Positions 7,822 through 57,990 of a stretch of 64,000 bases of DNA are shown piece after piece. The DNA is taken from positions 384,001 to 448,000 of the forward strand of contig CAWJDT010000001.1 of assembly GCA_963841735.1 (NCBI GenBank), read 5' to 3'. Every line of letters starts with the position of its first letter. Position 1 is the stretch's first letter. The translations under genes were made by a program, and so were the position numbers. Under the pieces are notes generated by a model. The model ran no database searches. It saw only the letters and a list, made by a program, of their open reading frames with translations, and was not told where the DNA came from. This DNA comes from an uncultured Actinomycetes bacterium. Lineage in GTDB: Bacteria; Actinomycetota; Thermoleophilia; RBG-16-64-13.

Positions 7822-7875
7822 AGCGGTATCGTATAAGATACCAGCCCTTGAGTCAACACGGGCTGACCCCCGTAT

Positions 7876-7905: not shown

Positions 7906-8043
7906 TCCACCGACACAACATCTGGTTGTCGGCATAACTCCGGCTGCGATTCTCAAGACAGCCCCCCTGGTCGGCATACCGAGCGGTTTCTGAGACCAAG
8001 ACGCCCGCGCGATCTTGGGTTTATGCAGACTGTATGTGCCGCC

Positions 8044-8208
8044 CTACAACCTGTCAAACAGGCTGCTGCGGACTCACTGGCCGCCGTGGGCGAGCACGGG
8101 GGGGGTTACGCACGGTGGTGAGCACGTCCTTGTAGCCGAGGAGCTCCTGTGTGGTCCGGGTATTGCAGCCCGCCTCCAGCAGATCAGTAGCACTTCACCG
8201 CGCGTCAG
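8044..8208 (-). pseudogene. intI: Integron integrase remnant 1
   Basis: LTRGEV / ATDLLEAGCNTRTTQELLGYKDVLTT...VLAHGGQ*VRSSLFDRL* matches the IntI C-terminus ([26 protein letters not shown]...GVRSPLD). Confidence 0.8.
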
Positions 8209-17396: not shown

Positions 17397-17819
17397 CTAC
17401 TGCTGCTCGGCCCTGAGGGCGGCCAGGAACTCAGCAGGGCTGAACACCGGCAGTTCGGAAGCTGCGAAACCCTTTGCATCCCGCGTCACGATCGCCACTG
17501 CTCCGGACCTGCGCGCTGCCTCATGGAGCACGGCATCCTCGAAGTCCCCGAAGCCACTATCGAGGGCATCCCGCAACACGTCGCGGTCCACACAGGCCAC
17601 GTCGAAGATCATGAGCAACTTGCGAATGTGCTCCGTAGCGACCGAGGTTCCGACCGCCTTGGATGCAAGACAGTTGATGGTCGTCACAGTCGTAGAGCAG
17701 ATGACTCCTTCGAGACGACCGTCATCCACCAAGCTCATGACCTGCTCAGCCGCGCCGACATAGGGCTCACGGGCGAGCAGATGGTCAAGCACCACGTTCG
17801 TATCAAGAAGCACCTTCAT
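17397..17819 (-). CDS. PIN-domain toxin
   Basis: VLLDTNVVLD...DFEDAV...IVTRD. Confidence 0.9.
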   Translation of the reverse strand: MKVLLDTNVVLDHLLAREPYVGAAEQVMSLVDDGRLEGVICSTTVTTINCLASKAVGTSVATEHIRKLLMIFDVACVDRDVLRDALDSGFGDFEDAVLHEAARRSGAVAIVTRDAKGFAASELPVFSPAEFLAALRAEQQ

Positions 17820-18052
17820 AGATACTTCTCTTCAAGATGACGCTTGTAGTCGGATGCGTCCAAGCCAGAGCCGGCTAGAACGCCGCGAAGTGACCGGACG
17901 CGAGGAGTCGCGTCAATATCACCAGCCTCGGTCTCGATGAGGGCGAAGAAGTCCGCGACCAGTTGCGAGATGGATCTGCCCGACTCCGCCGAGTGGCGCT
18001 TGGCGCTCGTGATCAGCCTATTGTCAAGACGAAGTGTGAGTTTGGTGTTCAT
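17816..18052 (-). CDS. DUF6364-family RHH antitoxin
   Basis: MNTKLTLRLD...AK..S...G.SISQLV...YKRHLEEKY. Confidence 0.88.
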   Translation of the reverse strand: MNTKLTLRLDNRLITSAKRHSAESGRSISQLVADFFALIETEAGDIDATPRVRSLRGVLAGSGLDASDYKRHLEEKYL

Positions 18053-18359
18053 AGAATCCCTCCTGACGTATACCACTGAGCCATATTATACGTCACTGCG
18101 GTTCCGAGGCAACACGACGGCCGTGGTCTTCCCGACAATGCTTGCCCAGTATGAATAACTCGACCGCCGCAGCACCTCGGTGTCTGTGTAACAACGGTCT
18201 CGAGCTTCAAGACACCCCCACAATGCGACGTTCCGCGTGCTTTCGCGGCGGTTGCCGCCTCCCGTAGCGTCGTGAATATGCAGACTTCCATGAGAAGCCG
18301 GCCGGTGTCAAGAGCGATTCTTGGGTTGCTTCTTCCTCCTCTGCTCGGTTTCTATCATC

Positions 18360-18560
18360 CCTCTTCCGCCGCGAAGAGCCAAGACCACGGCCACGCTTCC
18401 ATTCGCACTTTTTGTCGGGAACCTATGGCGGGACCCGGTGCACGTTGGGGTCCGGCCGGGGGAAGCGCTGCTATCTGTATAGCGGCCTTGGGGACGGCAC
18501 CGGGTTGGTGTCGTTCTGTACGGCCGAGTCTGTGTGCGCAGTCGCTTTCACCCTGGGCGG
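18360..18560 (-). ncRNA. Putative bridge/seek RNA of the IS1111 element
   Basis: 3' non-coding region contains TATACAG and CAGAC (target matches) and ATGGAAG (donor match) within stem-loops; boundaries approximate. Confidence 0.65.
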
Positions 18561-18653
18561 TTGGTCTTTTTGCTGGTCTCCTGCGATGGGTTCACCCGCC
18601 GGTCTTCCTTGGTTATCGATCCTTCCCGTCGGCATCTCTCATCTTCACCGCTC

Positions 18654-19736
18654 CTAGGTGGTGGGCGCAGTCTCGCCGCGGAGCCGGACGTTGCGCAGTG
18701 GCTCGTAGACCTCACCGGTCCTCCAGAGGTGCAGGAGGAGCACCGAGAGCTTGCGGGCCACCGCCACTACCGCTCGCTTCTTGCCCCGCTTGCCGCCCTG
18801 CGCGGCCAAGGCAAGACCCCAACGCCTGAGATCCGAGTCCGGGCCGAAGGGCCCGAGGATGTAGTGGGCGGCGCTCACGAGGAGCCAGCGCAGGTGCTCG
18901 TCCCCGGCTTTGGTGATGCGCAGCTGAGGCTCCAGGGAACCGGAGCTTGCCTGCCGGGGCCTGAGGCCGAGATACGAGCCCACCGAGCGGCACTTGGGGA
19001 AGCGCTCGGGATCTTCCACGGTAAGGACATAGACTGTGGCCGTAAGCGTGCCCACGCCGGGCACCTGGGAGAGAAGCGCGGTCTCTGGGTAGCGCTCCTT
19101 GGCCATGTCTTCGATCTTCTGATCGAGAGCGCGGATCTCATCGGAGATGTTCTGGATGACGGTGAGGACCGGAGCCAGGGCGGGAGCGAGCTCCTCGGGG
19201 ACACACGGCCCGGCCTTTTGGGCAAAGACGTCGCTCGCGCAGGTGGGCAGGCGGCTGCCCAAGGACTTCGTGCAGCCGCGGGCATGACTGATCAGACGGG
19301 TGCGAGCCCTGACCAGGGCATTGCGACTGCGCACAAGCGCGAGGTCGGACTGGGTCTCGGCTCTCCGATGGGTGAGGGGGGCCAGCAGCTCCGGGTCCAG
19401 ACGACCGACCCGGGCCAGGTACTCGGCGTCCACCCGGTCTGACTTCGAGTCGTTCTGGTAGATGAAGCGGAGCTTGCGGGGATTGGCCACGACAACGTCG
19501 TGTCCAAGTTCGGAAAGCAGACGGCTAACCCAGGGGGAGTGGGTGCCGGCCTCGATCACGATGCGTAGCGGATCCGCCCCGGAGAAGCGGCGACGCAAGG
19601 CTTCCGGCTTGGTCGTCACCCGGCCCTCCTCGGTCACCTCGCCCGCTTCGTCGAGCACACAGATCTGACAACAACGGTCGCTCAGATCGAGACCCACGGT
19701 CACCTTCGCTTGCTCGGTGGTGCTAGCATCGCACAT
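18654..19736 (-). CDS. IS110-family transposase/recombinase
   Basis: GLDL, IEAG, KSDRVDAE (DEDD RuvC domain), VPGVG, YLGLRP.QASSGS catalytic Ser motif. Confidence 0.95.
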   Translation of the reverse strand: MCDASTTEQAKVTVGLDLSDRCCQICVLDEAGEVTEEGRVTTKPEALRRRFSGADPLRIVIEAGTHSPWVSRLLSELGHDVVVANPRKLRFIYQNDSKSDRVDAEYLARVGRLDPELLAPLTHRRAETQSDLALVRSRNALVRARTRLISHARGCTKSLGSRLPTCASDVFAQKAGPCVPEELAPALAPVLTVIQNISDEIRALDQKIEDMAKERYPETALLSQVPGVGTLTATVYVLTVEDPERFPKCRSVGSYLGLRPRQASSGSLEPQLRITKAGDEHLRWLLVSAAHYILGPFGPDSDLRRWGLALAAQGGKRGKKRAVVAVARKLSVLLLHLWRTGEVYEPLRNVRLRGETAPTT

Positions 19737-19838
19737 GGCTGGCCTCCTTCATTTGGGCCCACGAGCCCGACTCTGATTGGGGACCTCACGGTACTCCGGG
19801 GGAGGTCGGCCTTCTCATCCCATCTGTATATGCCCGCC

Positions 19839-19960
19839 CTACAGGGAGTCAAGCGGGCTGGGCACGCCTTAGCCGCCTCGGTCGTAGATCATGGTCGTGT
19901 AAACGCTTTCGTGTCCCAGAACCTGTGGCGACCTACGTGCTTGACGATGCGCTCCGCGCC
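19839..19960 (-). pseudogene. intI: Integron integrase remnant 2
   Basis: RIVKHVGRH / VLGHESVYTTMIY / DRGG*GVPSPLDSL*: IntI C-terminal motifs with internal deletions. Confidence 0.8.
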
Positions 19961-19975
19961 CCCGGAGGAAAGGAA

Positions 19976-20025
19976 GGGGCGCCTTTCGGCGCCCAAAGGA
20001 AACGAATCAGGATTTGCCCAGAGCC
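19976..20025 (+). repeat. R-motif
   Basis: GGGGCGCCTTTCGGCGCCCAAAGGAAACGAATCAGGATTTGCCCAGAGCC, near-identical to 57935-57990. Confidence 0.8.
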
Positions 20026-57691: not shown

Positions 57692-57934
57692 TTGCCATCG
57701 CCATCGCCTCCACCGTCGGCCAAATAGTGGCCATCAGCCCTGCGCGAGCCAACCGGGGCAACACTTGGCGCCTACACACCACCCGTCCCGAGTCTCATGG
57801 TGCCCCCCTCCAGCGTGACCGAAGCGTGGCGCGGGAACTGGGAACACTCACCGCAGTTTCATGACTATACAGACTGTATCTGTCGCTCCACGGCGCGTCA
57901 AGCCGCTACGTAGACCCTACCTCTCAAAGAATGA

Positions 57935-57990
57935 GGGGGCGCCTTTCGGCGCCCCCAAAGGAAACGAACAAGGATTTGACCAGAGCCCGG
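57935..57990 (+). repeat. R-motif (right edge of hotspot)
   Basis: GGGGGCGCCTTTCGGCGCCCCCAAAGGAAACGAACAAGGATTTGACCAGAGCC. Confidence 0.8.

What the first reader, a model, noticed from the sequence alone, without database searches (positions are those of the whole stretch)
18277..19835. IS1111-type bridge recombinase apparently programmed to target a conserved integron box downstream of intI
Seen: removing the IS at its duplicated core (AG on the minus strand) restores CATATACAGTCTGCATA about 10 bp after the stop of intI remnant 2. The same box is present and unoccupied after intI remnant 1 (CATACAGTCTGCATA, 8022-8036) and near 57.9 kb (GATACAGTCTGTATA, 57866-57880). The IS 3' non-coding region carries TATACAG (18475-18481) and CAGAC (18528-18532), matching the left and right target flanks, and ATGGAAG (18396-18402), matching the donor end. 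Established: IS110/IS1111 elements use bridge/seek RNAs with target- and donor-binding loops, and an IS1111 subgroup targets attC. Inference: this element's RNA guides it to an intI/attI-proximal integron motif rather than attC, so it would be an RNA-guided parasite of integron platforms.
Basis: partly seen in the sequence, partly recalled or inferred. Interest (0 to 1): 0.85.

Follow-up and report, generated by a model that had tools for sequence, protein, structure and literature searches.

The report
RNA-guided insertion sequence targeting integron platforms
This is a mobile element of the IS1111 type whose own small RNA steers it into one short, conserved sequence just after integron integrase genes, a new target for a known kind of RNA-guided jumping gene.

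Summary
Window 18287-19823 (minus strand) is a 1537-bp IS1111-family element with a DEDD/Ser transposase, a 367-nt 3' non-coding region and subterminal inverted repeats. It is flanked by a duplicated AG.

The genome holds five copies, 99.9-100% identical. Their flanks are only 58-96% alike. All five sit in the same box, TATACAG|TCTG, 8-15 nt after the stop of an integron integrase gene or its remnant.

No exact 11-mer is left unoccupied (0.41 expected by chance). The two empty boxes in the window each carry one mismatch.

Eleven related IS from other phyla share the ends and an RNA scaffold but have different targets. A 90%-identical IS on a metagenome contig sits at the same integrase-adjacent box and carries a compensating guide change.

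The box lies between the integrase stop and an attI-like site of an "inverted-integrase" integron. It is not in the true attC sites, which are unoccupied. It overlaps a promoter-like TTGAC-N17/18-TACAGT that the insertion splits.

This is a new member of a known kind, of moderate interest. Nothing was tested experimentally.

The parts
18287..19823 (-). IS body (1537 bp), IS1111 family. One copy of the core dinucleotide AG (CT on the + strand) lies at each junction, at 18285-18286 and 19824-19825.
   Evidence: Five copies in the genome are 99.87-100% identical, and the boundaries are defined by where the copies stop being alike.
18654..19736 (-). Transposase / bridge recombinase, 360 aa, with an N-terminal DEDD RuvC-like domain and a C-terminal Ser domain.
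   Evidence: PF01548 at 2e-17 and PF02371 at 1.5e-18; aligns to ISCro4 (9t56, E 1.4e-11) and IS621 (8wt6, E 2.7e-10), with GLDLS, IEAG, SDRVDA and SSGS at the catalytic positions. GLRPRQASSG motif.
18383..18566 (-). Predicted seek/bridge RNA scaffold in the 3' non-coding region. It has an outer helix, a target-binding arm and a donor-binding arm.
   Evidence: scaffold conserved in 11 IS, with helices supported by covariation.
18527..18536 (-). Target guide T (RNA CACACAGACU). Its 3' six nt, CAGACU, are complementary to the top strand AGTCTG (core plus right flank).
   Evidence: It lies between helix P1 (5' strand 18538-18546) and helix P2.
18475..18482 (-). Target guide B (RNA CUAUACAG). UAUACAG equals the left flank plus core, so it would pair with the bottom strand.
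   Evidence: It lies between the P2 3' strand and the P1 3' strand (18464-18471).
18396..18403 (-). Donor guide (RNA AAUGGAAG). It equals the right IS end CATGGA plus the core AG.
   Evidence: AUGGAAG is found at the homologous position of the scaffold in 9 of 11 aligned relatives.
18444..18451 (-). Opposite side of the donor loop (RNA ACCCCAAC). It is partly complementary (5 of 7) to the left IS end ATGGGAT.
   Evidence: for its position. The complementarity was counted by eye and is weak.
18306..18311 (-). TTGACA near the right end, a candidate -35 of a junction promoter formed on the excised circle (TTGACA-17-GAAGAT).
   Evidence: The TTGAC is conserved at this place in 7 of 8 relatives aligned. 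The promoter role is an inference by analogy to ISEc11 Pjunc (cited in PMC11187229).
19826..19832 (-). Left half of the target (CATATAC on the minus strand).
18277..18284 (-). Right half of the target (TCTGCATA on the minus strand).
19836..19945 (-). intI remnant 2, the degenerate 3' end of an integron integrase gene with an internal stop.
   Evidence: It is too short for TIGR02249 to detect.
18131..18192 (-). Degenerate attI-like region downstream of the IS (GTTACACAGAC ... GTTATTCATAC-TGGGCAAGCATT-GTCGGGA).
   Evidence: by comparison with the intact platforms. The attI labels are by recalled analogy to attI1.
17397..18076 (-). First cassette after this platform, a DUF6364 antitoxin-like gene plus a PIN toxin-like gene.
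   Evidence: PF19891 at 2e-19 and PF13470 at 2e-24.
8020..8038 (-). Unoccupied box 1 (CACATACAGTCTGCATAAA). It has one mismatch to guide B at the distal position.
8029..8057 (-). Promoter-like site TTGACA-17-TACAGT (10 of 12). The -35 lies in the last intI codons and the -10 in the box.
   Evidence: The same geometry appears in L040. No such site is called at the occupied site.
8039..8191 (-). intI remnant 1.
   Evidence: TIGR02249 E 6.1e-4 at window 8114-8191; 153 nt at 74% identity.
57866..57882 (-). Unoccupied box 2 (CAGATACAGTCTGTATAG), nearly a perfect palindrome. It has one mismatch to the guides in either orientation.

Best explanation
An active or recently active IS1111-family insertion sequence. 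Its transposase is a DEDD/Ser bridge recombinase. Its 3' non-coding region encodes a seek/bridge RNA with two internal loops.

In the target loop, the 5' side (..CAGACU) pairs with the top strand of AG+TCTG and the 3' side (UAUACAG) pairs with the bottom strand of TATAC+AG. Together they specify the 11-bp site TATAC-AG-TCTG, with crossover at the AG core. In the donor loop, AAUGGAAG matches the right IS end plus the core.

The specified site is a conserved, nearly palindromic box. It lies 8-15 nt after the stop codon of integron integrase genes in this organism's family, upstream of an attI-like site. These integrons have intI and the cassettes pointing the same way (the 'inverted integrase' type).

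The element therefore lands between intI and attI, always co-oriented with intI. It has filled every exact site in the genome.

Shown here: the anatomy, the site specificity, the guide-target covariation, and that the target is not attC.

Inferred: that the RNA is made and bound; that the box is the -10 of the cassette promoter and/or an IntI-binding repeat; that insertion uncouples that promoter from the cassettes; and that tnp and RNA are expressed by read-through from intI.
For: Family. Both Pfam domains are present. The catalytic residues align to IS621 and ISCro4. The non-coding region is 367 nt at the 3' side of tnp against 87 nt at the 5' side, and subterminal repeats ATGAGAAG(G)CCG are present.

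Specificity.
- 5 of 5 copies are at the box.
- The copies are 99.87-100% identical, while the upstream 150 nt are 58-86% alike and the downstream 150 nt 58-96% alike.
- Both full-length intI genes (485.6 and 455.3 bits against a cut-off of 265) have the IS directly after their stop.
- 0 intact exact 11-mers remain (0.41 expected), and all 15 one-mismatch sites are empty.

RNA.
- 11 IS from at least 6 phylum-level labels share the ends and the scaffold but have different targets.
- Helices: 89.7% of cells are paired against 28-44% in slid controls, 9 pairs have double changes against 2-6, and 0 of 500 shuffles reach the observed values on 4 of 5 measures.
- Guide T against its own right flank gives a mean longest exact run of 7.0, against 2.85 for other elements' flanks (11 IS, permutation p<1e-5). 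Guide B against its own left flank gives 5.6 against 2.9 (9 IS, p=6e-5).
- The order, with T 5' of B, is the IS1111 rule stated in PMC11187229 (section 9, read).

Independent event. L075 is a metagenome contig carrying an IS 90.3% identical over 1542 nt. It sits after an intI 3' end at TTTATACAG|..|TCTGCCCATG. Its guide T, CAGGCAGACT, matches 8 nt of its own flank, where the window's guide CACACAGACT would match 6.

Target is an integron-platform feature.
- 12 of 15 unoccupied intI 3' ends from same-family genomes carry the box at the same place, and 6 of 15 carry the exact 11-mer.
- The >=80% consensus is CTTGACG.....TAG.GC..C.TATACAGTC.G..TA over 13 natural sites.
- Paralogous platforms diverge right after GTT of ..ATTGTTAGGC, as expected of an attI crossover point.
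- True attC hairpins in the C6 integron are unoccupied and lack the motif.

Promoter-like site. TTGACA-17-TACAGT and TTGACG-18-TACAGT are called at empty sites. None is called at the occupied site.
Against: - There is no expression or activity evidence. The laid runs are assembled contigs only. Contigs from two RNA libraries cover the non-coding region of 90-99% relatives, but DNA carry-over cannot be excluded.
- Rfam gives no hit in the window.
- The single-sequence fold of the whole non-coding region is not unusually stable (z -1.47).
- The matches in this element are short: 6 + 7 nt sharing the 2-nt core.
- Some relatives fit poorly. Saltatorellus guide T gives a run of 3, and Acidobacteriota and Bryobacteraceae guide B give 3. 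One off-diagonal pair reaches 8.
- The 5' side of the donor loop matches the left end at only 5 of 7.
- The right half of the box plus a GTTATGCAGAC about 85 nt downstream form a 9-11 bp inverted repeat. It folds with a terminal stem in this genome (z -2.1 to -3.3), so an attC-like nature of the target is not excluded.
- TTGAC is constrained by the P-L-D codons of intI, so its conservation does not by itself argue for a promoter.
- Three downstream flanks are 90-96% alike, so not all five insertions need be fully independent.
Confidence: 0.85

Rival explanations
1. The element belongs to the known IS1111-attC group, or simply behaves like it. Under this reading the box is the 5' (R'') end of a degenerate attC-like hairpin that follows intI, so this is ordinary attC targeting.
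For: The right half of the box, GTCTGCATAAC, and GTTATGCAGAC about 85 nt downstream are inverted repeats of RYYYAAC/GTTRRRY type. The stretch folds with a 10-bp terminal stem in this genome. IS1111-attC elements insert near the 5' end of attC (PMC3001079, discussion passage read).
Against: - True attC sites of the same integron (C6 28466-28406 and 27849-27760) are unoccupied and lack the 11-mer.
- In 4 of 8 platforms folded, the terminal repeat does not pair, and z ranges from -2.1 to +0.9. A real 61-nt attC gives z -5.6.
- The interior is a conserved multi-branch sequence, not one long imperfect hairpin.
- The orientation is sense to the cassettes, whereas IS1111-attC elements are antisense (PMC3001079).
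- The best transposase identity to any plasmid-borne IS110-family gene is 37%.
- The closest relatives found (47-61% identity) target non-integron repeats.
Confidence: 0.1
2. The five copies arose by duplication or homologous recombination of a whole intI-end/IS/attI block. Under this reading there is no targeted insertion, and the motif matches in the non-coding region are chance.
For: Three downstream flanks are 90-96% alike. The genome holds seven platform copies or remnants.
Against: - IS copies are 99.87-100% identical while most flanks are 58-69% alike.
- The unoccupied platforms show the uninterrupted site.
- An independent event is seen in L075, with a compensating guide change.
- Guide-target covariation holds across 11 IS.
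Confidence: 0.02
3. Site choice is mainly protein-directed. The transposase, or IntI bound at the box, would recognise the palindrome, and the RNA would play only a minor role.
For: The box is a near palindrome (TATACAG-T-CTGYATA). It is an inverted copy of the attI segment GTTGGGCAGACTGGATA, which is typical of protein-binding sites. The RNA matches are short.
Against: Relatives with near-identical ends and 47-61% identical transposases use unrelated, non-palindromic targets, and these track their loop sequences. RNA guidance has been shown experimentally for four IS1111 members (PMC11187229, abstract and sections 8-10 read).
Confidence: 0.03

Closest known systems
IS1111 family seekRNA / bridge-RNA elements (ISEc11, ISPa11, ISKpn4; IS621 as the IS110-group paradigm)
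   Same: - DEDD + Ser transposase.
- Long non-coding region 3' of tnp.
- Subterminal inverted repeats with short terminal extensions.
- A 2-nt core duplicated at the junctions.
- An RNA with a target loop and a donor loop.
- The top-strand match lies 5' of the bottom-strand match, as reported for IS1111 members (PMC11187229 sections 6 and 9; PMC11208160 section 12 passages).
   Different: The target is new. The transposase is distant from the solved ones, with only the C-terminal domain aligning well. The specific scaffold GCGACUGCG..GCAGCGCC / UGCAC..GUGCG-AAUGGAAG defines a clade spread over several phyla. I did not find this clade named in any call.
IS1111-attC group (ISPa21, ISPst6, ISKpn4, ISPa25)
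   Same: They are IS1111-family elements that home to integrons by site-specific insertion in one fixed orientation, and they can fill an integron with several copies.
   Different: Those elements insert inside attC sites of cassettes, near the 5' end and antisense to cassette transcription (PMC3001079). This one inserts once per platform, between the intI stop and the attI-like site, sense to intI and the cassettes, and leaves true attC sites alone. Its relation to that clade was not tested with reference sequences. Supplementary Fig. 7 of PMC11187229, which shows the ISKpn4/ISPst6 target matches, could not be seen.
Group IIC-attC introns
   Same: They are another class of RNA-guided mobile element that homes to a conserved integron sequence (PMC3001079, abstract and discussion).
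   Different: They work by a different mechanism (retrohoming ribozyme), have a different target (attC) and have a different orientation.

Membership tests
IS110/IS1111 superfamily | Transposase with a DEDD_Tnp_IS110 domain and a Transposase_20 domain | tested here: met
   PF01548 at 2e-17 (residues 14-155) and PF02371 at 1.5e-18 (residues 220-291).
IS110/IS1111 superfamily | Catalytic D-E-D-D and C-terminal Ser conserved | tested here: met
   in the alignment to ISCro4 and IS621, GLDLS/GIDVS, IEA/MEA, SDRVDA/TDAVDA and SSGS/ESGS line up. The residue numbering of IS621 is recalled, not taken from a call.
IS1111 group | Longer non-coding region downstream of tnp | tested here: met
   18287-18653 is 367 nt at the 3' side, and 19737-19823 is 87 nt at the 5' side. 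The criterion is from PMC11187229 section 6 and PMC11208160 section 12.
IS1111 group | Subterminal inverted repeats of 7-17 bp | tested here: met
   ATGAGAAGGCCG at the left and CGGCTTCTCAT at the right, set in 5 and 3 nt from the ends. They are conserved in relatives.
IS1111 group | GL-P----S(t)G motif in the C-terminal domain | tested here: met
   GLRPRQASSG. The criterion is from PMC11187229 section 6.
IS1111 group | seekRNA with the top-strand match 5' of the bottom-strand match, covarying with the target | tested here: met
IS1111 group | RNA is made and binds the transposase; a circular intermediate forms | not testable with these tools
   Only assembled contigs were available.
IS1111-attC group | Insertion inside attC sites of cassettes | tested here: not met
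   the insertion lies between the intI stop and the attI-like site, and true attC sites are unoccupied and lack the 11-mer. Caveat: the target borders an attC-like inverted repeat.
IS1111-attC group | Antisense to cassette transcription | tested here: not met
   tnp is on the same strand as intI and the cassette ORFs in all five copies. The criterion is from PMC3001079.
IS1111-attC group | Transposase inside the monophyletic ISPa21/ISPst6 clade | not tested
   No reference sequence was at hand. Indirectly, the best identity among plasmid-borne genes is 37%.
Integron (neighbouring platform) | IntI-type tyrosine recombinase | tested here: met
   TIGR02249 scores 485.6 and 455.3 bits against a cut-off of 265 for the two intact genes. 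The window holds remnants only.
Integron (neighbouring platform) | An attI with a GTTRRRY crossover, followed by cassettes ending in attC | tested here: inconclusive
   Paralogous platforms diverge after GTT of GTTAGGC, GTTAGAC or GTTGGGC. Toxin-antitoxin cassettes and two hairpin attC sites are seen in contig C6. No recombination data exist.

The most novel reading that the evidence does not exclude
A second, independent lineage of IS1111 elements has evolved to parasitise integrons. It does so not at the cassette sites but at a conserved regulatory or recombinase-binding box of the platform itself. The box would be the -10 of the cassette promoter of inverted-integrase integrons and also an inverted copy of part of attI. 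By splitting TACAG|T, the element would disconnect the cassette array from its promoter and from intI. It would place its own promoterless transposase and guide RNA under read-through from intI, so that it is expressed when the integron is induced.
Probability: 0.3. Interest if true: 0.65.

Novelty: new member of a known kind. Interest (0 to 1): 0.5.

Why it matters
Integrons are the main gene-capture platforms of bacteria, and the only IS known to home to them (the IS1111-attC group) hits the cassette sites. This would be a natural bridge-RNA element aimed at the platform between intI and attI, in a little-studied inverted-integrase integron lineage from uncultured soil bacteria.

It offers three things:
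- a clean natural example of guide-target co-variation, both across the clade and in a 90% sister element;
- a pointer to a conserved but uncharacterised integron element, the post-intI palindrome with promoter-like geometry, which would be worth testing as Pc or as an IntI site;
- a compact clade of bridge recombinases with a shared scaffold and many natural targets, useful for comparative work on guide rules.

The mechanism itself is not new.

Tried and rejected
- Rfam at gathering thresholds on the whole window gave no hits.
- A single-sequence RNA fold of the whole non-coding region was not informative (z -1.47). The comparative alignment was needed.
- A first scan for attC-like R'/R'' motifs used the wrong spacing and gave only background. 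A second, simple R''/R' scan found two convincing attC sites in contig C6 and none after the window's toxin-antitoxin cassette. No proper attC model was available.
- ssDNA folding of the stretch from the box to GTTATGCAGAC was inconsistent across 8 platforms, so it neither proves nor excludes an attC-like nature.
- Public runs: the best share of words was 0.20, all runs are Logan contigs, no piece spans the element, and no circle junction or empty-site joint was seen. The three listed joints have short sides and probably come from other organisms. Cover of the non-coding region in two RNA libraries is not proof of transcription. No habitat claim is made.
- G018 locus L007 is only a degenerate fragment of the IS 3' end, not at an integron. 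G020 locus L008 lacks the 5' part.
- The junction pattern was found in 1 of 401 sampled genomes of the phylum, the window's own. The non-coding region matched weakly or partly in 7 of 40 relatives, with no full copy.
- In the metagenome scan, 18 of 19 hits were distant IS (<=67% identity over short parts, or no alignment) that merely share ATACAG at the left flank. They are not counted for or against the integron claim.
- Literature: searches for 'IS1111-attC', 'IS1111'+'attI'+'integron', 'bridge RNA'+'IS110'+'integron' and 'seekRNA' listed no paper describing an IS110/IS1111 element targeted to an intI-proximal or attI site. This covers only the held library. Tetu & Holmes 2008 and Post & Hall 2009 were not held, so their contents are known to me only through citing passages.
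- The organism's taxon was not determined.
Full report
What is there. The finding's coordinates hold a 1537-bp insertion sequence on the minus strand (body 18287-19823). It reads CATATAC[AG]ATGGGATGAGAAGG ... GGCTTCTCATGGA[AG]TCTGCATA. One ORF of 360 aa (18654-19736, minus) carries the two Pfam domains of IS110-family transposases (PF01548 at 2e-17, PF02371 at 1.5e-18). It aligns to the solved ISCro4 and IS621 recombinases with the D-E-D-D and Ser positions conserved. The long non-coding region is 3' of the gene (367 nt against 87 nt). Subterminal inverted repeats are present, and the C-terminal motif is GLRPRQASSG. These are the features that PMC11187229 (section 6) and PMC11208160 (section 12) use to separate IS1111 from IS110 elements.

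Copies and insertion sites. The genome (2.82 Mb, 8 contigs, 89.7% complete) holds five copies. They are 99.87-100% identical to one another, while the 150 nt upstream are 58-86% alike and the 150 nt downstream 58-96% alike. All five interrupt the same sequence in the same orientation. An integron-integrase model (TIGR02249) finds two full-length genes above its cut-off, and each has an IS copy starting 7-8 nt after the end of the match. Three further copies follow 3' remnants of such genes. The window's own copy follows a remnant of about 100 nt with an internal stop. The one at 8022-8038 follows a 153-nt remnant. For the one at 57866-57882, BLAST finds no integrase similarity.

Chance. The 11 bp that the RNA would specify, TATACAGTCTG, is expected 0.41 times in this genome. 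It occurs five times, each time split by the IS, and never intact. Fifteen one-mismatch sites (16.3 expected) are all empty. They include both empty boxes of the window, which carry a change at the most distal left position. They also include three sites inside the attI-like regions on the other strand.

The RNA. Transposase relatives (47-61% identity) were found in genomes labelled Acidobacteriota (7 copies), Bryobacteraceae (5 copies), Planctomycetota, Saltatorellus, Desulfocapsaceae, Actinomycetes and others, and in same-family genomes. They share the ends AG|ATGG(G/A)ATGAGAAGGCC ... TTGAC..GGCCTTCTCATGGA|AG but sit in quite different sequences, none of them integron-related. Their 3' non-coding regions align into one scaffold:
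- GCGACUGCG, then about 10 variable nt, then CGGCC ... GGCCG, then about 8 variable nt, then AUAGCAGCGC;
- followed by ACCCCAAC-GUGCAC ... GUGCG-AAUGGAAG.

RNAalifold and my own pair count support an outer helix, P1, P2 and P4. 89.7% of cells are paired, against 28-44% when partners are slid. Nine pairs show changes on both sides, against 2-6. 0 of 500 shuffles reach the observed values on four of five measures.

ATGGAAG lies in the 3' side of the second loop.

Across elements, the 5' variable stretch is complementary to that element's own right flank. The mean longest exact run is 7.0, against 2.85 for other elements' flanks (11 elements, permutation p<1e-5). The 3' stretch equals that element's own left flank plus core: 5.6 against 2.9 (9 elements, p=6e-5). 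Having the top-strand match 5' of the bottom-strand match is the order reported for IS1111 seekRNAs (PMC11187229, section 9).

Weak spots: three elements fit poorly on one side, one unrelated pair scores 8, and the 5' side of the donor loop matches the left end only 5 of 7.

An independent case. A scan of metagenome contigs for the left junction gave 19 loci. Eighteen are distant relatives elsewhere. One, L075, carries an IS 90.3% identical over 1542 nt. It follows the 3' end of an integrase gene at TTTATACAG| and is followed by |TCTGCCCATG. Its 5' guide reads CAGGCAGACT, an 8-nt match to its own flank, whereas the window's guide (CACACAGACT) would match 6. This is a second insertion at the same kind of site, with a compensating guide change. 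The junction was not found in 400 other sampled genomes of the phylum.

What the target is. Downstream of the box, in the direction of intI, each platform has the following elements in order:
- about 85-100 nt of spacer;
- GTTATGCAGAC;
- a second GTTnnGCAGAC;
- then TGGATAAG-CATT-GTTAGGC.

Paralogous platforms are alike up to GTT and diverge after it. What follows are toxin-antitoxin cassettes, and in contig C6 two hairpin attC sites. I read this as an attI with accessory repeats, by analogy to attI1 (recalled, not tested), in an integron whose integrase points the same way as its cassettes. That would be the 'inverted integrase group' mentioned in PMC3575428.

The box is therefore between intI and attI. 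It is a feature of the platform, not of this genome alone:
- 12 of 15 unoccupied integrase 3' ends from other genomes of the family carry it at the same place, and 6 of 15 carry the exact 11-mer.
- TATACAGTC is the best-conserved non-coding block.
- Related ACAG-A/T-CTG palindromes follow intI in other families of the class (inspected by eye, not counted).

Two properties hint at function:
- Together with the TTGAC of the last integrase codons, the box forms a promoter-like TTGAC(A/G)-17/18-TACAGT at empty sites. The insertion splits TACAG|T, and no such site is called at the occupied locus.
- Its reverse complement, GTTATGCAGACTGTATA, resembles the attI segment GTTGGGCAGACTGGATA, so it may bind IntI.

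Both readings are inferences.

Not attC? The true attC sites are unoccupied and lack the motif. The element is sense to the cassettes, whereas IS1111-attC elements are antisense and sit inside attC (PMC3001079, discussion). The best identity to any plasmid-borne IS110-family gene is 37%. Against this, the box's right half and the first GTTATGCAGAC form a 9-11 bp inverted repeat. It folds with a terminal stem in this genome but not consistently in relatives. I could not run an attC model or place the transposase against ISPa21/ISPst6. I therefore keep 'attC-like target' as a 10% rival.

How it most likely works. Transcription through the element yields an RNA from about 18383-18566. There is no promoter-like site inside the element, so transcription plausibly comes by read-through from intI or from a TTGACA-17-GAAGAT promoter formed on the excised circle. 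The RNA binds the recombinase. Its donor loop holds the joined ends and its target loop holds TATAC-AG-TCTG, and strand exchange at AG inserts the circle. The family's mechanism has been shown experimentally in other members (PMC11187229, PMC11208160). For this element it is inferred from anatomy and covariation.

Verdict. The kind of element and its mechanism are known, and integron-homing IS1111 elements are known. What is new is the target (the platform rather than the cassette site), the lineage and the host integron type. I rate it a new member of a known kind, of moderate interest.

Noticed in passing
G000 contigs C1 (392k, 402k, 442k, 810k, 1356k), C5 (150k) and C6 (30k); window 8.0, 19.8 and 57.9 kb: A 2.8-Mb genome carries seven integron platforms or platform remnants. 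Two have an intact intI. All have intI pointing the same way as attI and the cassettes, and the cassettes seen are mostly toxin-antitoxin pairs. It is not explained why so many decayed platforms persist.
   Followed up: partly
window 8029-8057 (-); L040 1482-1511 (-): A promoter-like TTGAC(A/G)-17/18-TACAGT has its -35 in the last codons of intI (P-L-D) and its -10 in the conserved box. It is a candidate cassette promoter of this integron type.
   Followed up: partly
L003 (G000:C1:812.1-812.3k) and paralogs; sites C1:812271, C1:1357714 and C5:149858: The box is an inverted near-copy of an attI-internal segment (GTTATGCAGACTGTATA against GTTGGGCAGACTGGATA). The attI-internal copy differs from the IS target by one base and is unoccupied.
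   Followed up: partly
L091-L107 (other families of the same class): Integrases of other families in the class are also followed by co-oriented attI-like sites (..CTGCATAATCNTTGTTAGGC). They often have an ACAG-A-CTGC palindrome right after the stop, which is the same box with the central base flipped.
   Followed up: no
L019-L025 (Acidobacteriota MAG); L026-L031 (Bryobacteraceae MAG): Sister IS lineages are multicopy (7 and 5 copies). They target repeated hairpin-like sequences, ..TCTCCCGACCGAAGGG-AG-GGAGGAGGTTCGCGCCGCGGGAGCG and ..-AG-CCGCGACCGTGAGGGAGCG, probably REP-like repeats.
   Followed up: partly
L009 (G023:C34): This copy has AG at the 5' junction but AA at the 3' junction, and its 5' guide ends in UU rather than CU. 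It may be a natural core variant or a post-insertion mutation.
   Followed up: no
window 7828-7856 (-): A second promoter-like site (TTGACT-17-TACGAT) lies just upstream of the PIN-like first cassette after the empty platform. The cassette appears to carry its own promoter.
   Followed up: no
window ~19965-19995 and ~57935-57960: The same GC-rich hairpin (GGGCGCC-GAAA-GGCGCCC) precedes both intI remnant 2 and the 57.9-kb box. The two sites may be paralogous segments.
   Followed up: no
L007 (G018:C9): A degenerate fragment of the IS 3' end (84% identity over about 110 nt) lies in a non-integron context in a same-family genome. It is a relic of an older invasion.
   Followed up: partly
window 18281-18571, runs X19 and X20: Contigs from two metatranscriptome libraries cover the non-coding region of 90-99% relatives. 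One has different letters at 18533-18534, in the distal part of the 5' guide. This is too weak to call expression.
   Followed up: partly
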